A DNA stretch of 64,000 nt from positions 74,772,001 through 74,836,000 of the forward strand of contig OX597818.1 in the NCBI GenBank assembly GCA_951406725.2. Reading direction: 5' to 3'. Source of the DNA: Octopus vulgaris (lineage: Eukaryota). The stretch's first letter is position 1; every line of letters starts with the position of its first letter. This document shows positions 320 through 58,698 of the stretch, piece after piece. The position numbers and the translations under genes were made by a program. The notes under the pieces were generated by a model. It saw nothing but the letters and a program-made list of their open reading frames with translations, was not told where the DNA came from and ran no database searches.

Positions 320-1036
320 GAGGATGGGATCAGACGTGCAACAGAAATCAACATAGAAACTTTAAGAAAAGTTCAACACAACAACACACCTTCCCCGAAA
401 ATACTACCTTACATATCTACATACAACCCCAGAAACAAAGAAGCCTTCACCATCATCACCCAGAATTTACCAATACTTCATAAAAACCCCAAATTAAAGG
501 AAATTCTAAACATACACCAAATCATTAAAAGCTACAAACAGCCTAAATCACTTAAAAAGATTCTCACAAAGGCAAAATTGTCTTCTGAAATTACGGATGC
601 AAAAGTAAAAAAATGTGGTAGATCGAACTGTGCAACATGTCCTAACCTGCTAGAAGGATCAGAATTCCTCTTTAAAGAGGGACAGAAATTCAAGATCAAA
701 TCTAACTTTACTTGTGCCTCTGAAAACATAATTTATGTCATAAAATGCTCGGGCTGCCACCAAGACTACGTGGGTTCCACGGGACTATCACTCAGACGTA
801 GATGCACACTGCATCGACAACAGATTGCATTCCCAGAATATAGAATGATACCTTTTAGTGAGCACATTGAGAAATGCGCAAAGCAACTACAACCACAATT
901 TTTAATCTTTCCATTCTACCAATGTGCTTTAGGATCATCAACACAAATTAGACTAAACAAGGAAACATTCTTCATTGAAAAGTACAAGCCCAGACTCAAC
1001 CATCCGAACATACTGATACAGAGAAATTCACATTAA
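320..1036 (+). CDS. 5'-truncated Penelope-like element ORF (RT thumb/linker, Cys-rich linker, GIY-YIG endonuclease)
   Basis: Open frame from 320 (in frame with ORF 578..1036): LPYISTYNP, YKQPKSLKKIL, KCGRSNCATC, NIIYVIKCSGCHQDYVGSTG (GIY-YIG), LRRR..HR, E.FFIEKYKPRLN. Confidence 0.9.
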   Translation, partial: EDGIRRATEINIETLRKVQHNNTPSPKILPYISTYNPRNKEAFTIITQNLPILHKNPKLKEILNIHQIIKSYKQPKSLKKILTKAKLSSEITDAKVKKCGRSNCATCPNLLEGSEFLFKEGQKFKIKSNFTCASENIIYVIKCSGCHQDYVGSTGLSLRRRCTLHRQQIAFPEYRMIPFSEHIEKCAKQLQPQFLIFPFYQCALGSSTQIRLNKETFFIEKYKPRLNHPNILIQRNSH

Positions 1037-1167
1037 GGGAAAGGAAAAAAAAATTTAAGCGATTATCTCCCTTACACCGGAAGAAATCACCCACTACCTT
1101 CCCTTATTTAGAACTCTCCGGAGCTTAAACACAAGGATAACTCTATTAAACATAAACATAACGTCAC

Positions 1168-1206
1168 AAGAAATTTGAAAAGCTAAATGCGAAACCGGTC
1201 TTTCTT
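1168..1206 (+). ncRNA. Minimal type I hammerhead ribozyme, U3-A8 core variant
   Basis: aagaaa(t)-TTGAAAA-gc[taaat]gc-GAAA-ccgg-TC-tttctt. Stem I aagaaa/tttctt with one extra U, palindromic stem III, GUC triplet; lies in the PLE 3' tail where HHRs are expected. Confidence 0.65.
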
Positions 1207-1332
1207 TAAAAATTATGTCATTATAAAGGGAAAAAAAATTTGTTTAAAATTTTTTTAATATTCTTCAGACATATTGACGCAAATATATATATTTTTTAAC
1301 ATTTAAGCCTTCTGTCGTTTTTTCACTCTTTA

Positions 1333-1878: not shown

Positions 1879-2110
1879 CTAACAATATAGGATGAAGTCC
1901 CTTTCTCTACAGAAAAGGAATCCACCAGGAAGCGTGGGCAGTATATTTTAAAAAACCGTTACGGTTTAAGTATAAACATCATATAATTAAGGGCTAAAGA
2001 GGGTTATTCTAAAGCCAATACACTGATTTATCCACTTATAATCCGCTTGCTACAGCAGAATTGAAACTGAAAACGGGCAACTAACCTTTAGAAAATTTAA
2101 ATTTCGTTAT

Positions 2111-2171
2111 CTCTATATTGAATCAATTTCGAATTAATCTTATAAAAAGATATATTCTTTCTTCAGTAGAG
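2111..2171 (-). ncRNA. Type I hammerhead ribozyme
   Basis: Reverse complement: ctcta-CTGAAGA-aagaatatatctt..aagattaattc-GAAA-ttga t tcaa-TA-tagag; perfect 5-bp stem I, AUA triplet. Confidence 0.85.
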
Positions 2172-2515
2172 CTTTCGATGGGATATAAATAAAATACTCA
2201 CGTATGATCATGGAAAAAGCACAAGCTAAAAACATAGCTACACTTGAGTACATCACTTATACCTAAAAATAAAAATTATTTGGTCAGCCTCAGAAACAAC
2301 GTCTTGACCTTTCGCCGCTACAAATTGTAATGGTTACCGGTCCTCCCGTAGCAAGCAGCGAGTTTACTACTAACAATATAGGATGAAGTCCCTTTCTCTA
2401 CAGAAAAGGAATCCATCAGGAAGCGTGGGCAGTATATTTAAAAAAACCGTTACGGTTGAAGTATAAACATCATATAATTAAGGGCTAAAGAGGGTTATTT
2501 ATATCCCATCGAAAG

Positions 2516-2577
2516 CTCTACTGAAGAAAGAATATATCTTTTTATAAGATTAATTCCGAAATTGATTCAATATAGAG
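2516..2577 (+). ncRNA. Type I hammerhead ribozyme (inverted copy of 2111..2171)
   Basis: ctcta 2516-20; CTGAAGA 2521-27; GAAA 2558-61; ttgattcaa; TA 2571-72; tagag 2573-77. Confidence 0.85.
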
Positions 2578-2695
2578 ATAACGAAATTAAAATTTTCTAA
2601 AGGTTAGTTGCCCGTTTTCAGTCTCAATTCTCCTGTAGCAAGCGGATTATAAGTGGATAAATCAGTGTATTGGCTTTAGAATAACCCTCTTTAGC

Positions 2696-2754
<59 letters not shown>

Positions 2755-8129: not shown

Positions 8130-8446
8130 TACAATATTAATAAATTACTCAAAATACAGCCACAGTACCACCTGGATTTAAACTAAGGAAGTTCGTTGAA
8201 GTACCGACCAACATCCATATCCTCTGGAAATCAATGATTTGTGAACATTATTCTAACTACCTTTACTCTTTATTCTTCTATTTACACCATTATTCTTCTA
8301 TTCTATTCATTATAAACTGTAGATTTTATTCCTTGTAAACTGTAAATAATCACTATTTAAAATATCCATACCCTGTGTCTGATGACGGAATGGCCGGTGC
8401 TTGGACGCACTAACCTATCACTTGGGTTATCCCAGAAACGACTGTA
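8130..8446 (+). mobile_element. PLE extreme 3' end and tail
   Basis: One frame ends NTATVPPGLN* (typical GIY-YIG PLE C-terminus T..P.GLN) at 8186, followed by an HHR motif. Confidence 0.5.
8372..8446 (+). ncRNA. Hammerhead ribozyme motif with the 3' strand of stem I disrupted
   Basis: CTGATGA 8379-85; stem II gga-atggcc/ggttatcc with internal hairpin ggtgc/gcact; GAAA 8435-38; cgactg (near-palindrome); TA 8445-46; then a TA-rich tract. Confidence 0.6.
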
Positions 8447-8476
8447 AGTATACATATATATATATGACTGAAGATT

Positions 8477-8713
8477 GAAGGCTTCGAATGTCCCGTCCGT
8501 CTTTTTTGTATTTTGTATCGTCTTCTAAATGTTTTACGTTCTTGTCCCAGTTTGTATTTTTCTACATATAGTATATATAGCGCCATCCGTACCCTCTTTG
8601 GCCTTATGTAAGTACATATTCCTTTAAATTTGGTACGACTCTATAACACTGTCTCTCTCTCTCCTATATTTCTCTGCCTTTCACACTTTGCACTCTATTT
8701 TGATCTGTCTCTT

Positions 8714-8774
<61 letters not shown>

Positions 8775-9258
8775 CTTTGATTCCTTTGCCCCCTTTTTTT
8801 TCTCTCCCTTCTCCTTTCACGTGACCGCTGGTCAACCAGCCTTTCAGCTTCTAACCAGCGCCATGAGAGGATCGTTGTCTTCGTCTGCCGAAAAAGGCAT
8901 TTTTTCCAAATACGCCAGCTAAACTAATTTGTACTGTCTATTAGTCGTAAGACATCCGCTGTTGTTGTCCTGTTTTTACTATTATTTTTTGGTATTTTAT
9001 ATTCGTGTGGCATCGTCTGTTTTTCTGTCCCTGTTTCGTATACATTCGATCCTTCTTCCAAGAAATCTAATGCTCGTAGCTTAGTTTTTCCTTGGGGCTG
9101 GCCGGATCGGAGCGATCTCAAAATTAATCAGCCGAAATTGCTAGGATTATCCGGTTCTTGACTGAATTTTTGAAGGCTTCGAATGTCCCGTCCGTGTTTT
9201 TTGTATCGTCTTCTAAATGTTTCACGTTCTTGTCCCAGTTTGTATTTTTCTACATATA
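8477..9258 (+). repeat. Element bounded by a ~90-bp direct repeat (8477..8570 and 9171..9258) with a CT-rich/CACGTG head
   Basis: tgaaggcttcgaatgtcccgtccg...tttttctacatata occurs twice; each copy ends in TA-rich sequence. Confidence 0.7.
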
Positions 9259-25913: not shown

Positions 25914-28113
25914 GAAGTAGGAGGTTGAAAACTGCACAAGAAGTCGCAGCGCTTTCTGGGCGATTGCAGGATATTCCTTTTCAACCAGCAACCAAACTGC
26001 ATTCAGGTAAAGCTCAGAATGCTTCAAATGTAATGTTCTGTTTATTTAAAACACTGGCAAGTTCTTCTTCTTCTGTTAATGTGAACTGTTCTTCAAATGG
26101 CTCAAATTCCACAAATGGGTCATACTGGTCAACAGATATCGATGGAAAATATTTGTCAAGATTTGTTAACAAAGTGTGCAAATAGTTCAAAATCAGTAGC
26201 GCAGTTTCTTGACAATTCCTTTTAAAAACACTTCCAAATTTCCTACAGCTATGCGTTTCTTCCATATTGTCAATTTCTTCTGAAAAGCATTTATTTTGTC
26301 AGTAGAAGACAAGATATTTTCGTTCCTGCCCTGCTTGCCATTGTTCAAGAGGCTTAGCTCATGAAATATATCGGCAAGATATGCTAACTTGGAACACCAA
26401 TGGTCATCACTCAAACATTCTACAAAGTCTTTCAGGTTTTCTTGGAAACAAAAGGTCAATAACTCTTCTCTTAATTGGTAGAAACGAGAAAATACTTTTT
26501 CTCTTGACAACCATCGTATTTCTGTGTGCTGGATTAAGGTGGTATGGTCTGCGCCCATACCCACACAAAGTTTCGCAAACTGTCGACATTTAAGTGGCCT
26601 CATTTTGAAGTAATTATCTATTTTCACTACCATATCCAATGCAGATTTTTGTTCAGATCCAAGCGTTTTAGCAACTAGTGCTTCTCTATGAATGAAACAT
26701 TTGGATTTTATTTTTGTACCAAAGTGGACAAAGCCTTTAAGACATCCTGTCATTGCAGGGGCACCATCTGTACAAATACCAACGCAGTTTTTCCAGTTCA
26801 ATCCACAATACTCTAAGTATGAATTTAAAACATCAAATACATCTTGTCCTTTTCTTGTTTCTGGCAACTCTTTGCAACACAGGACGTCTTCTACAATAGC
26901 TTCATCATTAATAAAACGAACAAATACAAGGAGTTGTGATTTGCCAGTGATGTCTGTACTCTCATCAACTTATGTTTCAGTATTTTTGACTTAATATTGC
27001 ACTCAATGTCTCCTGACTTATTATGTTGTCAGAAGGTGGAATTTTATTCAGCTCTGATGCAGCATCCTCTCCAAACATTATCCTCACTATCTACTGGCAT
27101 GCAGGTAAAATTACAGTTTCAGCGATGGTATGAGATTTCATTTTTCTTGCAACTATCTCCGCCACAGCATAACTTGCTTCTTGTCCTTTGTCACTCAACT
27201 TGAACTTTTTGGCAAACATAGAAACTTGCCTTTTATTAAATGCCAATTCTCTTTTAAAATATTGTTCTTTTTTGCCTGACAACTCTGAATGTTTAGTCGT
27301 TAAGTGTCGTTTCAGTTTGGCTGGTGCCATAGCACTATTAGCCAGCTTCTCCCCAGAAACAGTACACAAAGGTGAAGGGCAGTCTGGGTTTCCAGTTCAA
27401 GTAAATCCCAGAGCTATATAGTTTTCACAATATTGACGAACTTTTAGTTGCAGGTTAATTCCATCATTTCTTGGTAATTTCGACGAGGCAACATCACTGG
27501 CAGTTGCTGCAGCTTCAACAGACTGTCTCAGACCCTGCATCTGTTCATCTGTATCTGCCTTACGTTTTTTTTTTCAGAAATCTATCCATACTTGTAAGGC
27601 AGTAAGCAGAATTGTATATATATATAAAAGCAAACCTAATAGTGGCAGGACAAAATGATCTTTAAAGTGTAGCGAGTTTAATGATGTAAAATTTAGCTTT
27701 TTTTATTAATGCTTTTTAGCAATAGGTATTTGATTATATTTAAATAATATGCATATAATAATAAAATAGATTTTCGGATTTGAATTTAAAATAGTTATTT
27801 GTTCATTGGCTCAAGTTTCTCATCGAGTTTTTGATGAGAATAAATGTAATCTATTCAAACTAAAATTTTTTAAATACATGTTTTATAATAACTGTAGATG
27901 CAAGAATAAAATTGCATATGTACGTGACAATTTTTTTACACTTTGAGTTTTTATTGTAAATAAATCTGAACATGAGTATTTTCATTTCATTAATAAAATG
28001 CTGGGTTTTTTTTTTTTTTTTTGTGCATAAGACAAATTATTGCACAAGGGTTCCTCGAGCCAGTGGAATGTTTTCTTGGGGTTCCGCTCCAGCAAAAGGT
28101 TTGAAAAGCACTG
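25914..28113 (-). mobile_element. hAT Buster-family transposon (5' TIR present, frameshifted transposase)
   Basis: TIR cagtgcttttcaaacc at 28113; MDRFLKK start at 27589; BED-like LANSAMAPAKLKRHL..KH; DESTD; ICTDGAPAM; CFIHREAL; TEIRWLS; LAYLADIF; FSTSY.C. Confidence 0.92.
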
Positions 28114-36320: not shown

Positions 36321-36325
<5 letters not shown>

Positions 36326-36663
36326 GATGTACTCGCATAGCAAGTGATTTGATCTGAGATCGTGTGCTGGAACGAAAATAATTGCAGTGTGGAAGGTGTT
36401 TGTAAGCCATTTAAGAAACACACAAAAGCCGTTCGATTCACTTCAACATTTAAGTTTAATTTGTCAAAATATTTTCGTCGCTAAAATCCGCGACCTGTTC
36501 ACTCTCAAAAATCCGTGCTGCATCTCATAGTACCGATTTTTGTCAGTGAACAGGTCGCGGATTTTAGCGACGAAAATATTTTGACAAATTAAACTTAAAC
36601 ATTGAAGTAAAACGAACGGCTTTTGTGAGTTTCTTAAATGGCTTACAAACACCTTCCACGCTG

Positions 36664-36666
<3 letters not shown>
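36321..36666. mobile_element. Fold-back HHR element between (TA)n tracts (arms 36382..36513 and 36535..36666)
   Basis: About 130-bp inverted repeat with a 21-bp spacer; the left arm extends about 60 nt further. Confidence 0.87.
36539..36588 (+). ncRNA. Hammerhead-fold motif with a G3-C8 swapped core (second copy on - at 36460..36509)
   Basis: tttgtca-GTGAACA-g-gtcgc[ggatttta]gcgac-GAA-Aatat-T-T-tgacaaa: 7-bp stem I, 5-bp stem II, palindromic stem III, UUU triplet. Confidence 0.72.
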
Positions 36667-44079: not shown

Positions 44080-44137
<58 letters not shown>

Positions 44138-44139
<2 letters not shown>

Positions 44140-45462
44140 GGAGTAAACACATAAATGTGAAATAAGGTGGAAAAAGAGTACTCAAATACCAGTGGTAGAG
44201 TAATATGCTTTATTTTAAGCAGCAGAAAATTCAACAAAATCTGTTACTCTGAGTTTCTCGTTGCCGTTCATCAGACAGTTTTTGCTAGAATGGAACATAT
44301 ATATTAATTCAATCTATACTCTTACAAACGCTACACCTTTAAAAAGAAATGAACTTGTTTGATTGGCCCTTTAGAAAAACCGGTCAATCTTCGAGAGATT
44401 AACAAAAAGGTCAAAAATATATGTATATATATATAAAAAAAACTTATAAAAATTATAAAATCCGAGGAAAAAACCGAGGAAAAAACCTATTGCCGTTAAT
44501 GAAGACAGTACAAATTAATGCATAGAAATTAAACCTGTTATAAATACTGCAATACATATTTATATTAAAATCCACATATATATATCAACATACACAAAAG
44601 GATGCGCGTAAACGCCATACATACATATACAGACGTATGAATATGAATCTAAATTATACACATAAAAGCATGTGTACATATATTCACGCAAACCGTCTCG
44701 CACGCAAGCTAAAATTCATCTATGTAGCAATTCTCATATACTGAGCAAGGAGGGGGAACGAAAGAAAGGGAAAGAGAGAAAAAGGAACGAAGGAGGGGTG
44801 GGGAAAAAACTTGTAGCGATATTATTGGCATCTATAGAGGCCAGTATACATACACAAGTTTGAATTGATACATATACATACCGTCGTGTGTATGCGTGCT
44901 GAAGCACAAGCATACTTTCACTTACACATACACAGATACGCATGCTTACAAATACATATGCTTTGCTATACACAAACTTATATAAACATTCTAAATTTGA
45001 CAACATTGCTTTTTTTTAAAAAAAAAAAAACATTGCTTTTAAAAAATGGGTGCATTAATAAAAATATATACGAAAGACATATAAAATAAAATATAACATC
45101 CTATTTTGGGTCATTTATAAATAATCAAGGTAATATAAATAATCAAGGTAATCTTATGCAATACAATAACATGAAAACTAAGTTTGTAGGTTTTTCCTAA
45201 TATATATGTAGAAACAATAAGACTTTGCTATAGGTCCGTCGTAGCGCTCAAGAGTCAAAATCAAAATCAAAAAATCAAAATACAAAATATATACTCTATC
45301 CATATGGTATATTTATATTCGACATTTTAAATTTAGCCGTGTGCCTACATAAGTTCATTAATTCACTTCTTTGATTCAAAGAATTATTGTCTTTGAATAA
45401 TATGTGCATTTTTTCTAATAAGCAAAGCCTGCACTTGAAATTATATTTGTAAGCTCCATGCC

Positions 45463-45463
<1 letters not shown>
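44138..45463 (-). repeat. Inverted copy of the Naiad-like PLE 3' end and tail
   Basis: 44208..45463 is the reverse complement of 46720..47972 with only a few substitutions, plus 70 extra tail nt ending at (TA)n. Confidence 0.95.
44230..44290 (-). ncRNA. Minimal hammerhead ribozyme (copy of 47890..47950)
   Basis: Reverse complement of the 47890 motif. Confidence 0.85.
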
Positions 45464-45504
<41 letters not shown>

Positions 45505-45507
45505 CAA

Positions 45508-45540
<33 letters not shown>

Positions 45541-45652
45541 CATACATACGTACATACATGCATACATACATGCATACATACGTACATACATACATACATA
45601 CATACATACATACATACATACATACATACATACATGCATACATACATACATT

Positions 45653-46887
45653 AAGAAGACTGACGATTCTCTTTTCGATGTACCGATGGGGGCATACGAC
45701 GGGGCTGAATTATGTATGCTCATAGGAGCCTTTATTCTCCATAATCTAAAAATAGAATTCCCATTTATAGATGCAGGTCTATATAGGGATGACGGCCTTA
45801 TAGCCACGCATAATCTAAACGGCCATGAATCAGATAGACTTAGGAAGGACCTTATAGCTTTCTTTCAAAGGATGGGCTTACGGATTACGATAGATACTAA
45901 CCTGAATAGTGTAGATTTTTTAGACGTAAATTTTAATGTAAGATCGGATAGATTTAAACCTTTCCGTAAGCCCAATGAAAAGCTATCGTATATTAGCAAA
46001 GATTCGAACCATCCACCAGTTATCCTTAGCAACTTAGTCAGCAATGTAGGTAGAAGAATATCTTCAATTTCTTCGGACGAGGCAGCATTCCATAATGCTG
46101 CACCTTATTACGATAGCGCATTAAAGAATAGTGGATTCTCGGAGAAGATCCAGTTCAACCAGCTTAATGCTAATAATAATGCTGCACGAAGAACTAGGAC
46201 CAGGAAAGTTTTGTGGTTCAACCCGGCTTTCAATTTGGCCGTAAAGACTAATATAGGTAAGGAATTTTTGAGATTAGTCTCTAAGCATTTTAGGCAGGGT
46301 CATAAATTCTACAGAATATTTAATAGAAGAACCCTGAAGGTTAGCTATTCTTGTTGCAGAAATTTCGCCTCTTACATTAGCCAACATAATAGGAAGCTAA
46401 TTGAGATTAGACATGGTGCCGAGCCCATTAAGAAATGTAATTTCAAAAACGAAAGCTCCTGTCCGTTAGAAGGGAAATGTCTAGTGAAAGGAGTAGTTTA
46501 TAGAGCCAAGGTGCAAGTGGAAGGCTCATCGGAATACAAGACATACACAGGGGCTTCAGAAAATTCATTTAAAACAAGATTTTATTCTCATAAGAATTCT
46601 TTTAAATACCCAGAGAATAGAAAGAAAACCAGCCTAGCAAAATATGTCTGGGAACTAAAAGAAAAAAAGCCCCACCTTTCAACGTGACATGGAGCATTCT
46701 GGACAGGGCGGCACCATACAGGCATGGAGCTTACAAATATAATTTCAAGTGCAGGCTTTGCTTATTAGAAAAAATGCACATATTATTCAAAGACAATAAT
46801 TCTTTGAATCAAAGAAGTGAATTAATGAACTTATGTAGGCACACGGCTAAATTTAAAATGTCGAATATAAATATACCATATGGATAG
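45653..46887 (+). CDS. 5'-truncated Naiad-like Penelope RT-GIY-YIG ORF with one frameshift near 46670
   Basis: FDVPMGAYDGAE, GLYRDDGL, VDFLDV, PFRKPN, SNHPP, WFNP.F, KVSYSC, CN..N..SCPLEGKC, VVY...YTG, FKTRF..H, CRLCLLEK, LN.RSEL..LCRH. Confidence 0.93.
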
Positions 46888-47889
46888 AGTATATATTTTG
46901 TATTTTGATTTTTTGATTTTGATTTTGACTCTTGAGCGCTACGACGGACCTATAGCAAAGTCTTATTGTTTCTACATATATATTAGGAAAAACCTACAAA
47001 CTTTGTTTTCATGTTATTGTATTGCATAAGATTACCTTGATTATTTATATTACCTTGATTATTTATAAATGACCCAAAATAGGATGTTATATTATATTTT
47101 ATGTCTTTCGTATATATTTTTATTAATGCACCCATTTTTTAAAAGCAATGTTTTTTTTTTAAAAAAAAAAGCAATGTTGTCAAATTTAGAATGTTTATAT
47201 AAGTTTGTGTATAGCAAAGCATATGTATTTGTAAGCATGCGTATCTGTGTATGTGTAAGTGAAAGTATGCTTGTGCTTAAGCACGCATACACACGACGGT
47301 ATGTATATGTATCAATTCAAACTTGTGTATGTATACTGGCCTCTATAGATGCCAATAATATCGCTACAAGTTTTTTCCCCACCCCTCCTTCGTTCCTTTT
47401 TCTCTCTTTCCCTTTCTTTCGTTCCCCCTCCTTGCTCAGTATATGAGAATTGCTACATAGATGAATTTTAGCTTGCGTGCGAGACGGTTTGCGTGAATAT
47501 ATGTACACATGCTTTTATGTGTATAATTTAGATTCATATTCATACGTCTGTATATGTATGTATGGCGTTTACGCGCATCCTTTTGTGTATGTTGATATAT
47601 ATATGTGGATTTTAATATAAATATGTATTGCAGTATTTATAACAGGTTTAATTTCTATGCATTAATTTGTACTGTCTTCATTAACGGCAATAGGTTTTTT
47701 CCTCGGTTTTTTCCTCGGATTTTATAATTTTTATAAGTTTTTTTTATATATATATACATATATTTTTGACCTTTTTGTTAATCTCTCGAAGATTGACCGG
47801 TTTTTCTAAAGGGCCAATCAAACAAGTTCATTTCTTTTTAAAGGTGTAGCGTTTGTAAGAGTATAGATTGAATTAATATATATGTTCCA

Positions 47890-47950
47890 TTCTAGCAAAA
47901 ACTGTCTGATGAACGGCAACGAGAAACTCAGAGTAACAGATTTTGTTGAA
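47890..47950 (+). ncRNA. Minimal type I hammerhead ribozyme in the PLE tail
   Basis: ttctagcaaaaactgt-CTGATGA-a-cg[gcaa]cg-a-GAAA-ctc a gag-TA-acagattttgttgaa; GUA triplet, long stem I, GNRA-capped 2-bp stem II. Confidence 0.85.
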
Positions 47951-47983
47951 TTTTCTGCTTCTTAAAATAAAGTATATATATAT

Positions 47984-48018
<35 letters not shown>

Positions 48019-48132
48019 CAAACATACATACATACATACATACATATATACATACATACGTACATACATGCATACATACATGCATACATACGTACATACA
48101 TACATACATACATACATACATACATACATACA

Positions 48133-48163
<31 letters not shown>

Positions 48164-49290
48164 GTTTCTTTATTAGCCACACAGGGCTGCACACAGGGAG
48201 AAAAAAAAGGTGGTGTAGGTGTTCGATTAAAGGGGATCGTAAAAAGGAAAGAAAAAAACGATCAGTAGGGTCGTGTATCACAGAAATGTCATGATGTATA
48301 GTGTAAAGGGGGGAACAGAAAATGTTTATCCGTGGAAAGAAAAGCCTACGGAAAAGACCACGGTATCCTCGGTCAATAATATCGCATGTTAACACATTTA
48401 TTTGCAAGTAAGTAACTCTCTGTTTTAAATTTTTCCGGGTTCGTAGGATTATGCTCATTCATACCTGCCATCCCTGCTACATTCACCCATCTTTTTTTGA
48501 AACATTCGCTAGACAAAACTTGCCTCTCTACTCTTACTTTCCTTTTCGAGTGATACTTGAAGAAGTTGATGAAAGATTGACCAGAGAGGAACGTGCTTGT
48601 CTCCAATCCTTTCAGACGTGTCTACCAGATACATTCTTTCGCCATAGCCATATGTATGATGAAAATAGCCCTTCCTTCCCGTTTGAAGGAAGGAGACGTG
48701 ACAATATTGACGATAGACTCGGCTGATAAACCGACTCGTCCCACAGGTGACAGCAGTCGTCCGACATAAGCCCACAGGTCGGAAATGGTTAGACACTGCA
48801 CAAGTGCGTGCAGAACGGTTTCGTCGCTCTGGCCGCATCTCGGGCTGGTCGGTCCCATGTTTCTCGCGCCATGTCTGTAGAGCTTATCCCGAATGGGTAG
48901 TGCTTCTCGGTAGCGCTACCAGGCCAGGGATCTCTGGAAGTTGTCCATGGGCCCTGGCCCGAAAGTCGTCCTGAACAGGCGGGTCAGGTATTTCTCGTCG
49001 ACCTCCAGGTTCGCCCCGAGCACGTCGTCGTACCTCCCCTCCACTAATTCCCTATAGACAGCTTTGGTTGTGTTGAAGTCGCTCAGGGTCGACCCGAGAC
49101 GGCATAGTTGCTTGAGAGCAACGTGACACTCGCGGTGCCATTCGCCCTTCCTCGGCCTCTTTTTGATCCACGACTGTATTTCGGTCATGGAGACGAGTTG
49201 CGGGAAAGCGTGCTTCACAAACGGCGACCACACCTGTTCACCGTCGTCTACGTAGAGCTGGAGATGTCGCAGTCTCAGCGCGTGTCTGCG
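48164..49290 (-). mobile_element. Tx1/L1-group LINE 3' fragment (zf-RVT)
   Basis: LRLRHL, WSPFVK, TKAVYRELV, NFQRSLAW, PRCGQSDETVLHALVQC..ISDLW, AMAKECIW; ends gtggctaataaagaaa. Confidence 0.85.
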
Positions 49291-53484: not shown

Positions 53485-55319
53485 ACAGATATATTTGTGT
53501 TTATGCATATGTATGTGTGCATTTATATATGTAGGGTGGATGGGGGGTAATGTGAGTGTAAGTATTTATTCATATATCTATGTCTCTGAAGAGAAATATC
53601 TCCAGAAGTTATCACACTATTTCGATAAAAAATATCAAATCGAGTAACGAGTACCATAGAAGCAGCCGCTTCAGTCTATTTACTGGACACCACTTCCATG
53701 AGACCTGAGTGAAATAACTGAAACCAACAAAAGTTTTTAAAAATTCATTATTTTTCCCCTTAAAAGTGTTGTCCAATAAGTAATAACTTTGTTTCAGCCA
53801 ATCGTCGAAACAAAGACCAAATTCTTGCATTTCACTTCATATTTCATGCAGTTTTGTTTTGACATTTTGTTCCGTGTTAATTTTAGCGTAATATTATATT
53901 TTATGTTGTTTAATCTCGAGATGGTCATTACAGCAATGATAAACACATGCACTGGTTCTTTTTCCTTCTTTATTTGTTTCCCAGTTGATTAACTCTTTTA
54001 CATATTAGCTGATCAATTGTTTGAATAATCCTTGCGTTTATCAGTAAGTTAGTTAAAGTCGTTTCGTCGAAAAATCGACATCATTAGTGACATGTCCTCT
54101 CTATTCCAGGACTGTTTAATTTTTGTCTCGACGAATAGCTCATAAAGAATTGAAGTAGATCCAGTGCGTGTATTTTTCATTGGCATAACAACACTCCTGA
54201 GATACAGCAAAATATTGTTCAACACTATAAAGAATCATGCAAGCCAAATGCCGAAAAGAAATTTTCTCCATTTTAGCCCAACCTAAACACGGATTTTCTG
54301 TTAGAACACTCTATACTGCGCTAGTTACCAGGAGAGGACCACTCATATTGGCTTTTGGTGTAAAATGCACTTTTTATTATATCGATAACGGAGAAATAAT
54401 TTCAAGTCAATTTCAGCGCTAAGACTAGCATTAATACTGCTTCTGTCGCTAAGTATATTCTCTATTTTGAGTTTTATCGAAAATGTATTTTGTCTTAAGT
54501 TTCATCTCAAGTAGATCCAAGTTTTATTTATTTCCTTTCCTAGTCGCAGCATTTACCTGTCATTATTTTTCCCGCTTTTTTGGGGGAATGGGGTTACGCC
54601 TAAACATTAAATACCTAACAACAGTAACCAAGGTATGTCTATGCTGCTTTGTTCGTTTTGTTGGATCTCTCACAGCAGTATTATTTTATTGTTTACGACT
54701 ATTTCGCATATACGCGCACGACAGTCACATATTGAATGATATATAAATACACCATGCCGGAATGATAGACGAGATCTTCAGGAGTGAAACACATGTCCGT
54801 AAATTTGCTAAATAGGAAATTACCTGAGGTCAAAGAACTATAACTACTGACAAATACTGATCTTCTTATACTCAGTTTAAACTCACGACACATACACACA
54901 CACACACACAAGTACACTCATACACACACATACACACAAACACACACACACACGACGATTTCTTACAGAGTAATACGCAAACACACAAACAAAACTAAAC
55001 AATTACAGATATATGCGTGTTTATGCATATGTATGTGTGTATATTTATATATGTAAGGTGGATGGGGGGTAATGTGAGTGTAAGTATTTATTCATGTATC
55101 TATGTCTCTGTAGAGAAATATCTCCAGAAGTTATCACACTATTTCGATAAAAAATATCAAATCGAATAACGAGTACCATGGAAGCATCCGCTTCAATATA
55201 TTTACTGGACACCACTTCCATATGAACTGAGTGAAATCACTGAAACAAACAAAAGTGTGAAAAAATTCGTTATTTTTCTCCTTAAAAGCGTTGTCCAATA
55301 AGTACTTACTTTGTTTCAG
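53485..55319. repeat. ~313-bp diverged direct repeat (53485..53797 and 55005..55319) flanking a possible minus-strand PLE RT relic
   Basis: The repeat is seen directly; 'DFST' and 'LLDNTF' remnants on the minus strand are weak. Confidence 0.65.
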
Positions 55320-57579: not shown

Positions 57580-57626
<47 letters not shown>

Positions 57627-58698
57627 GATATACCATGATGTACTGGTGATCTGATGAGCTAGCGTTCTTTACCTGCATTGATTTGTGAATATAAAATTGT
57701 ATTGATTACTGTGTAGCATGTATATTAGTACACGGAGAATACATATATAATCTTAGCGGTGTTAAGTGGTTAAATAGCCGTGCCCTACTCTCATACCTCC
57801 TGCCTATTTGTGGTTCATGTACTGATCATGAAATAATTTCATTTATTGCATCCTCTGGTTCTCATGGAAATCTTCAGAATACGCCTCTGTGTTTCATACA
57901 TACACAAACAGCCGTGTCACCTCCCTCAATAATATTGTTGCAAAACCTGATAGTTAACATTCGCAACAGAATATCTAACCTTTCTTCTTCTAAAGATATT
58001 TTGATAGGGCAGCCCTTTACTACAACAAAGTCCCAGCCAACAATAGCTTTAACGATTAATTATTTTACAACCCTTCTACTAATGATACGAATCATAATAA
58101 TTGACCTGCAAATAGACCTTGGAGAATAATTAGGTTCATTCACCCATTCTTTTCTATAAATTATAAAACTAGCATAAAGAAAAGATACCCATCTTTCTTA
58201 GATAAACAGTTTGCTGTAAATCAATTGTGCAAAAATTATTCAACAGACGCTTAATTAAATTATCATATACCGACAGCCTCGATATGAAGAGCATAGTTCC
58301 ACTGAGACACCACCAAGTATCTACTCCCAGTTATAAATGTAAAGACGCCGGAAAATGCCCACTCGACCAGGGGTGCATGATAAAATCCGTCATATATGAG
58401 GCAAAAGTTATAGATCCTCAAGCGGGCTCTGTTAACAGACCACATTGTAGTCTAACACAGAGACGTATTCTGAAGATTCCCATGAGAACCAGAGGATGCA
58501 ATAAATGAAATCATTTCATTATCAGTACATGAACCACAAATAGGCAGGAGGTATGAGAGTAAGGCACAGCTATTTATATATGTATTCTCCGTGTACTAAT
58601 ATACATGCTACGCAGTAATCAATACAATTTTATATTCACAAATCAATGCAGGTAAAGAACGCTAGCTCATCAGATCACCAGTACATCTTGGTTACATC
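57627..58698 (+). mobile_element. Degenerate Naiad-like PLE fragment with an inverted tail (arms 57627..57893 and 58454..58698)
   Basis: PPSI..NL..NIRNRISNLSS, IKLSY, CKDAGKCPLDQGC..KSVIYEAKV; arms are reverse-complementary. Confidence 0.82.

What the first reader, a model, noticed from the sequence alone, without database searches (positions are those of the whole stretch)
44138..48161. Young Naiad-like PLE with a 1.25-kb inverted tail and a ~180-bp duplicated target microsatellite
Seen: the order is [inverted tail 44138..45463][compound microsatellite 45463..45651][PLE 45653..47972][same microsatellite 47985..48161]. Both microsatellites share the same interruption pattern (GATA)n-CAAA-(CATA)n-TATA-..CG..TG..TG..CG. 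The arms differ at only a few sites and each has an HHR. Inference: one event in which host DNA 3' of the target was copied into the junction between two oppositely primed cDNAs, or an unusually long target duplication. This is a mechanistic snapshot and a route for microsatellite amplification.
Basis: partly seen in the sequence, partly recalled or inferred. Interest (0 to 1): 0.72.

Follow-up and report, generated by a model that had tools for sequence, protein, structure and literature searches.

The report
Two-armed Penelope insertion with copied flank
Two cut-short, head-to-head copies of a Penelope-type jumping gene (Hydra group, not Naiad) enclose a 189-base copy of the microsatellite that lies just beside the insertion, likely because a loose new DNA end briefly copied the neighbouring chromosome while the insert was being sealed, a slip already known from human LINE-1.

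Summary
The layout is in the sequence. Left to right: (TA)27, a minus arm with a 70-nt tail (44138-45463), a 189-nt compound microsatellite, a plus copy (45650-47972), (TA)7, and the same microsatellite. The arms are 99.3% alike, each has a hammerhead motif, and the microsatellites share six interruptions found together nowhere else in the window. The element is not a Naiad: its C-terminal GIY-YIG, missing CCHH, CxxC/CxH motifs and hammerhead fit the Hydra clade. Inverted arms with a one-sided tail are published for PLEs. The extra piece is a direct copy of flank starting about 12 bp from the insertion point, matching L1 'templated insertions' (<250 bp, within 15 bp). Best reading (0.55): one event primed on both target strands, with a cDNA end switching onto the right flank. 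A third nick would give the same product (0.17). Misassembly is not excluded (0.10): no genome was held and no listed record spans the locus. The centre argues against a pre-formed, self-primed hairpin. I found no PLE case in print, but this scan's unchecked notes report similar flank copies in other genomes. One case does not show a route to microsatellite amplification.

The parts
44084..44137 (.). Left (TA)27 target run; inferred top-strand priming site; holds the left copy of the unresolvable TA TSD
44138..44207 (-). 70-nt 3' tail, present only on the left arm
   Evidence: family contigs continue into it behind 47977 (table 7)
44208..45463 (-). Inverted 5'-truncated arm: last 53 codons of the endonuclease plus the 3' UTR; 99.28% to 46720-47972
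44241..44278 (-). Minimal type I hammerhead motif, left arm (cleavage untested)
   Evidence: compared by eye with Hydra-2_aMil in File S2
45463..45651 (+). Inner 189-nt compound (GATA)n/(CATA)n microsatellite, a direct copy of the right flank; 1-nt overlap (T) with the left arm and 2-nt overlap (AT) with the plus copy
   Evidence: upstream family letters from one X12 contig (table 7)
45650..47972 (+). 5'-truncated Hydra-clade PLE without the tail; ORF 45650-46887 (RT C-terminal half, thumb, linker, GIY-YIG); about 300 N-terminal residues missing; frame broken in the A run near 46660-46666
   Evidence: other family copies differ by one base at this run (table 4)
47902..47939 (+). Minimal type I hammerhead motif, right arm (2-bp stem II; not the MFE fold; cleavage untested)
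47973..47986 (.). Right (TA)7; inferred bottom-strand priming site and TSD remnant
47987..48162 (+). Outer (host) compound microsatellite, the inferred template
48163..49290 (-). Neighbouring 5'-truncated non-LTR retrotransposon 3' end with a weak zf-RVT hit; bounds the microsatellite (Tx1/L1-like label is recalled, not tested)
   Evidence: PF13966, E 2.9e-4, below curated cut-off; one search gave no family

Best explanation
This is a head-to-head pair of 5'-truncated Hydra-clade Penelope-like copies in a TA run, with a direct 189-nt copy of the adjacent host microsatellite between them, likely made in one insertion event in which a cDNA end switched onto the neighbouring chromosome. Steps, all inferred unless marked: (1) The GIY-YIG endonuclease nicks both strands in (TA)n, about 7-14 nt apart. 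(2) Each 3' end primes reverse transcription at one of the family's two recurrent start sites. That recurrent ends exist is shown in family contigs. This gives a 1.33-kb arm with the tail and a 2.32-kb arm without it. (3) Instead of the two cDNA ends joining directly, one end pairs with the right flank and copies 189 nt. Either the plus-copy cDNA anneals by 'AT' at the far end of the microsatellite and runs off at the top-strand nick, or the minus-arm cDNA enters at that nick and leaves after 189 nt; the product is the same. (4) The ends are joined by 1-2 nt microhomology and filled in. (5) Point changes and repeat slippage then make the arms about 0.3% different and the microsatellites differ by 1 substitution and up to 3 repeat-length changes.
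For: The copy is direct and begins at the TA/GATA edge, within about 12 bp of the plus copy's 3' junction; its edge is blurred by slippage, since an ungapped match from 47973 gives 96.3%. That is the size and distance reported for 22 L1 templated insertions: <250 bp, within 15 bp, SDSA-like model (10.1101/2024.08.27.596794, section 4 read). Junction overlaps are 1 nt and 2 nt. Neither arm can be a fold-back copy of the other: only the left has the tail and only the right has 45650-46719. A PLE protein cleaves and extends both strands in vitro and starts at two RNA sites that define the tail (PMC11167929, parts 1-2 of 4 read). Family contigs join (TA)n at about 44203 in 2 of 4 runs (7 contigs in X15, 1 in X11), the tail-less end used by the right arm; other contigs run on into the tail. 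The ages agree: 4 substitutions in about 1250 nt predict 0.6 in 185 nt, and 1 is seen. A second independent hit of the family in this TA run is unlikely: 0.04-3.6% under assumed 1,000-50,000 copies, a 2.5-Gb genome and the window's TA density (the assumptions are mine). Each arm carries a real allele at one site where they differ: an X11 contig of depth 1198 matches the left arm across 45072-45153, and one X1 contig matches the right arm at 47279.
Against: No listed record spans the structure, and none of the rows shown carries the two inner junctions. The tables were cut, the runs are short-read contigs of unknown relation to the source, and the one raw-read run laid 1 read. The empty allele was not seen. 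The arms are not identical, so two different RNAs or two events remain possible. The tools' allele tables were incomplete (46843 and 47828 appear in only one of the two lays), so allele frequencies could not be used. Microhomology of 1-2 nt is no better than chance. The sequence cannot separate template switching from a third nick.
Confidence: 0.55

Rival explanations
1. One event with a third nick: after two-ended priming in (TA)n, a further top-strand nick at the TA step at the far end of the microsatellite primes second-strand synthesis on the plus-copy cDNA, so the 189 nt are a long staggered duplication rather than a template switch.
For: The inner copy ends 1 nt short of the end of the outer (CATA)17 tract, at one of only 3 ATAT sites among 43 AT steps in it, so both limits lie at TA steps the endonuclease would favour. 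L1 TSDs over 100 bp are known (up to 10% in HeLa, most events in NER-deficient cells; PMC5223499 passages).
Against: It needs three nicks and the unwinding of about 190 bp. The PLE TSDs given in the passages read are 8-10 bp (PMC3846280). Slippage of 1-2 units elsewhere in the copies makes the 1-nt coincidence soft.
Confidence: 0.17
2. Assembly artefact: two haplotypes or repeat copies were joined through the microsatellite, and the two microsatellites are alleles of one locus.
For: No spanning record. Such PLE structures are noted as hard to assemble (PMC8557442). The differences between the microsatellites are of allelic size.
Against: A chimera needs two independent family insertions at one TA run plus a false join of CATA to a mid-ORF position. 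A read fold-back would mirror the flank and could not add the tail. The one-tail/no-tail pairing is the published PLE pattern.
Confidence: 0.1
3. Two separate insertions: the plus copy came first with a TSD of about 200 bp, and a sister copy later landed in the opposite orientation at the TA/GATA edge.
For: The arms differ at 4 substitutions and an indel. The left arm matches high-depth family contigs at 45082-45089, as a younger copy would.
Against: It needs two rare things, a 200-bp TSD and a same-subfamily second hit in the same TA run (0.04-3.6% under my assumptions). One divergent contig sides with the right arm at 47279.
Confidence: 0.08
4. The two arms first joined directly; later the inverted repeat broke at its centre and repair patched it with a copy of the nearby microsatellite.
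For: Long inverted repeats are break-prone (own knowledge), and the template is 2.3 kb away.
Against: A later patch has no reason to start at the edge of the insertion's own TA run. The arms are 1.26 kb apart, not a perfect palindrome. Arm and microsatellite divergence agree in age.
Confidence: 0.08

Closest known systems
Hydra clade of C-terminal EN+ Penelope-like elements (Craig et al. 2021, PMC8557442; e.g. Hydra-2_Amil, Hydra-1_Obim, Penelope-13_HM)
   Same: RT then GIY-YIG, no CCHH, CxxC and CxH around the conserved E and N, (TA)n target, hammerhead with the same stems I and III as Hydra-2_aMil; Penelope-13_HM has a 5'-truncated inverted copy at its 5' end.
   Different: The second linker cysteine reads F in this copy; the tail is 70 nt rather than 30-40; hammerhead stem II is only 2 bp; host flank lies between the arms.
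EN+ PLE insertions with an inverted 5'-truncated copy and a one-sided tail (Pen2a_Av, PMC3846280; PAc, PMC11167929)
   Same: Head-to-head arms, tail on one side, AT-rich target, two RT start sites.
   Different: No palindrome at the inverted junction; instead a direct 189-nt copy of the target's own flank, which a hairpin formed away from the target could not contain. Host spacers in Pen1_Av are of unknown origin and lie before the 3' pLTR.
L1 templated insertions (Zumalave et al. 2024, 10.1101/2024.08.27.596794) and flank-derived 5' extra nucleotides of zebrafish LINEs (PMC4245944)
   Same: A copy of nearby genomic DNA, <250 bp and within 15 bp of the site, built into the insert during integration.
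   Different: Those are LINEs, mostly somatic or cell-culture events; here it is a PLE in a genome assembly, both arms include the element's 3' end, and the template is a microsatellite.

Membership tests
Naiad PLE | GIY-YIG endonuclease N-terminal to RT | tested here: not met
   RT motifs (FDVPMG, LYRDDG) at 45.7-45.8 kb precede GVVY..YTG at 46.5 kb
Naiad PLE | No canonical hammerhead | tested here: not met
   Type I core with stems I and III near the 3' end of both arms
Naiad PLE | CCHH zinc finger with two cysteines between GIY and YIG | tested here: not met
   No cysteine between GVVY and YTG (Fig. S2)
Naiad PLE | CxC motif, DKA motif and IFD | not testable with these tools
   That region is lost by 5' truncation in this copy
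Hydra PLE | Single ORF, RT with C-terminal GIY-YIG | tested here: met
   59% identity to 713-aa P0001
Hydra PLE | CCHH absent from the endonuclease | tested here: met
   against Fig. S2
Hydra PLE | [quoted passage not shown] | tested here: met
   CRLC-L-E-K ... LN ... CRH
Hydra PLE | CxCX5C linker motif | tested here: inconclusive
   This copy reads C-N-F-x5-C-x5-C; all 5 aligned full-length relatives have CNC; whether the F is private or family-wide was not determined
Hydra PLE | RWK and DKT motifs in the N-terminal part | not testable with these tools
   Region missing in this copy; relatives show RWR/RWN/RWK and DKT/DKS
Hydra PLE | Divergent RT4(B) of the FDVTMGSYDGAE type | tested here: met
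   FDVPMGAYDGAE here; Hydra-2_Amil and Hydra-1_Ajap in Fig. S1, compared by eye
Hydra PLE | Canonical hammerhead near the 3' end | tested here: inconclusive
   Core and stems I and III match; stem II 2 bp; not the MFE fold, z 0.13; no Rfam hit
Hydra PLE | Insertion into (TA)n | tested here: met
   Both 3' ends abut TA runs
Hydra PLE | RT phylogeny places it in the Hydra clade | not tested
   No tree built with the published reference set
Retrotransposon templated insertion (L1 definition) | Copied template <250 bp lying within 15 bp of the insertion site | tested here: met
   189 nt; starts 0-14 bp from the 3' junction at 47972
Retrotransposon templated insertion (L1 definition) | Template present once at the empty site | not testable with these tools
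   No genome held; no spanning record

The most novel reading that the evidence does not exclude
Hydra-type endonucleases nick TA steps on both sides of compound microsatellites, so two-ended insertions routinely duplicate whole microsatellites into their centre. PLEs would then be a systematic source of new microsatellite loci in this repeat-rich genome, and the copies would map the nicks of the unresolved second half of PLE integration.
Probability: 0.1. Interest if true: 0.6.

Novelty: new variant of a known kind. Interest (0 to 1): 0.33.

Why it matters
How PLEs finish integration and make their inverted structures is still open (PMC8557442 discussion passage; PMC11167929). One published reading is self-priming on an antisense template (PMC3846280 section 11). 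A direct copy of the target's own flank between the arms can only be made at the target, so, if the assembly is right, this locus favours priming from both cut strands with the arms joined on the chromosome. The interrupted microsatellite also marks the copy's origin and, roughly, the top-strand nick. The gain is modest: it is one locus, the slip is known for LINEs, and the scan has noted related cases elsewhere.

Tried and rejected
No whole genome was held, so sister insertions and the empty site could not be surveyed. Scans for the family's hammerhead motif found 0 matches in metagenome, genome and viral contigs; the protein scan of metagenomes confirmed 0 of 210 candidate stretches. Raw-read run X24 laid only 1 read. 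Contig allele tables were too incomplete to say whether the arm differences are private or shared, so an early idea that both arms share a rare allele at 47828 was dropped. Most 'joints' from 44139 to 45463 (table 5c) come from the short TA and GATA flanks I included and are not evidence. The joint 45658-47964 (22-nt side, low complexity) was ignored. Pfam gave no hit for the PLE pieces. The Atlas gave no family for the neighbouring LINE fragment. Rejected readings: Naiad; fold-back copying of one arm from the other; the microsatellite carried from the donor locus (it matches the flank of this site); chance resemblance of the two microsatellites. Searches that found no PLE report of a flank copy between arms: 0 papers; 1 paper, phrase used in another sense; 0 papers; listings only. 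Most subscription journals are not in the library. PMC12016303 (passages) and 10.64898/2026.07.22.740005 (passages) held nothing on this point.

Full report
Observation. The structure is as described. From left to right: (TA)27 at 44084-44137; a minus-strand arm at 44138-45463; a compound microsatellite at 45463-45651; a plus-strand element at 45650-47972; (TA)7 at 47973-47986; the same microsatellite at 47987-48162; then the 3' end of a LINE-like fragment. The arms match at 99.28% over 1256 nt, with 4 substitutions, one 2-nt indel and one homopolymer shift. The left arm has 70 extra nt at its 3' end, and the right copy has 1070 extra nt at its 5' end. The two microsatellites share six interruptions in the same order and nearly the same spacing. 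The pattern occurs 2 times in the window and in 0 of 100 shuffles, and in none of the 11 other CATA arrays listed. They differ by (GATA)10 versus 8, (CATA)7 versus 6, one CATG and about one unit at the end.

What the element is. The plus copy encodes the C-terminal half of a PLE reverse transcriptase, the thumb, a linker and a GIY-YIG endonuclease. It lacks about 300 N-terminal residues relative to P0001 (713 aa, 59% identical), and the frame breaks in an A run near 46660-46666 where other family copies differ by one base. Craig et al. 2021 (PMC8557442; abstract, passages, sections 3, 10, 11, 12 and supplement parts 2, 54, 55 read; the Fig. S7 alignment not read) define Naiads by an N-terminal endonuclease with CCHH and no canonical hammerhead. 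All three fail here. Hydra elements have a C-terminal endonuclease without CCHH, a CxCX5C linker, CxxC and CxH around the conserved E and N, a hammerhead and a (TA)n target. This copy meets these, except that the second linker cysteine reads F and the hammerhead's stem II is 2 bp. The hammerhead is a motif match only: it is not the MFE fold, Rfam has no hit, and cleavage is untested. The family is abundant: 20 of 24 listed runs hold at least half its words, and thousands of contigs were laid in three runs. Earlier scan notes call this an octopus genome; I did not test that.

The two arms are a known layout. An inverted 5'-truncated copy with a one-sided tail is described for EN+ PLEs (PMC8557442 section 6 passage; PMC3846280 passages) and listed for the Hydra family Penelope-13_HM. 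The anole PLE protein cleaves and extends both target strands in vitro and starts at two RNA sites that define the tail (PMC11167929, parts 1-2 of 4). Here, contigs in 2 of 4 runs join (TA)n at about 44203 (7 in X15, 1 in X11), the tail-less end used by the right copy, while others run on into the tail. Neither arm can be a fold-back copy of the other, since each has sequence the other lacks.

The extra piece. The spacer's first 189 nt are a direct copy of the flank right of the insertion. The left edge is the TA/GATA boundary, blurred by up to 12 bp because of slippage. The right edge is 1 nt short of the end of the outer tract. The junction overlaps are 1 nt and 2 nt; the second is read from one X12 contig that shows the family's upstream letters. 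If both strands were nicked in the TA run 7-14 nt apart, the TA units on each side are the TSD and the inner copy starts at about the top-strand nick (inference). For L1, 22 templated insertions were reported, typically under 250 bp and within 15 bp of the site, with an SDSA-like model (10.1101/2024.08.27.596794, section 4 read; its supplementary Fig. 4d could not be seen and may bear on orientation and size). Flank-derived 5' extra nucleotides are known for zebrafish LINEs (PMC4245944 passages), templated genomic insertions in L1-induced cells (PMC11702581 passages), and L1 TSDs over 100 bp (PMC5223499 passages).

One event or two. Arm divergence (4 in about 1250) predicts 0.6 substitutions in the microsatellite pair and 1 is seen. 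The window has 36 TA runs of 10 or more units and 61 of 6 or more. With an assumed 2.5-Gb genome and 1,000-50,000 family ends, a second independent hit in one run has a chance of 0.04-3.6%. An X11 contig of depth 1198 matches the left arm exactly across 45072-45153, and one X1 contig sides with the right arm at 47279, so at those two sites the arm in question carries an allele that exists elsewhere. The allele tables were incomplete and cannot say more. One event is favoured, with one or two RNAs as template.

What is not shown. No genome was held. No listed record spans the locus, and no displayed row carries the inner junctions (tables cut; short-read contigs). Misassembly and the state of the empty site remain open. 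Template switch and third nick give the same sequence. That the copy ends at one of 3 ATAT sites among 43 AT steps is a mild point for the third nick.

Frequency and novelty. Of 4 two-armed inserts that I picked from the window's self-BLAST, 1 has a flank copy in its spacer (a 15-nt match at another was set aside as chance). My searches found no paper reporting this for PLEs. Unchecked notes of this scan report two fixed arm ends for Hydra copies in the same genome and flank copies at PLE junctions in other genomes, one of 90 bases between head-to-head arms. These are leads, not support.

Verdict. Real as assembled; a Hydra-clade PLE, not a Naiad; a known two-armed layout plus a templated flank copy of a kind known from L1. 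Its value is as a clean footprint that favours joining of the arms at the target over a pre-formed self-primed hairpin (PMC3846280 section 11). Interest 0.33; new variant of a known kind.

Noticed in passing
window 1879-2697: Insert in a TA-rich run with a 130-nt direct repeat at 491-nt spacing and a 203-nt inverted arm. The unit length recalls the 490-nt hammerhead repeat in scan note e1-8672319; not compared.
   Followed up: partly
window 320-1300: [quoted passage not shown]
   Followed up: no
window 36321-36666: Short hairpin insert between TA runs, arms about 90% alike, with a one-sided extension of about 57 nt; no flank copy in the loop.
   Followed up: partly
window 57623-58692: Older two-armed insert (arms 88% alike) with Hydra-like RT/EN remnants in the spacer and a hammerhead-like core; no flank copy found.
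   Followed up: partly
window 48163-49290 (-): LINE-like 3' fragment with a weak zf-RVT hit and an in-frame stop, joined to (CATA)n, with CATAT on both sides (possible 5-bp TSD) and a decayed CATA-like tract beyond its 5' end. If it arrived after the PLE, the microsatellite originally ended in a short TA run.
   Followed up: partly
window 45494-46687 (+): The inner (CATA)n copy is in frame with the truncated RT, giving a chance 397-codon stop-free frame with TYIH repeats.
   Followed up: no
window 44138-44171 and runs X1, X11, X12, X15: Many family contigs diverge at 44171 into a different tail end, so the family has at least two tail variants (table 7).
   Followed up: no
window 8360-9253; 53485-55319; 26193-26969; 38199 (-); 3544 (-): Tandem 110-nt repeat with a hammerhead-like core by eye (8466/9160); 313-nt direct repeats 1.5 kb apart; a 258-codon frame resembling a DNA-transposon transposase (recalled, not tested); two more hammerhead-like cores.
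   Followed up: no
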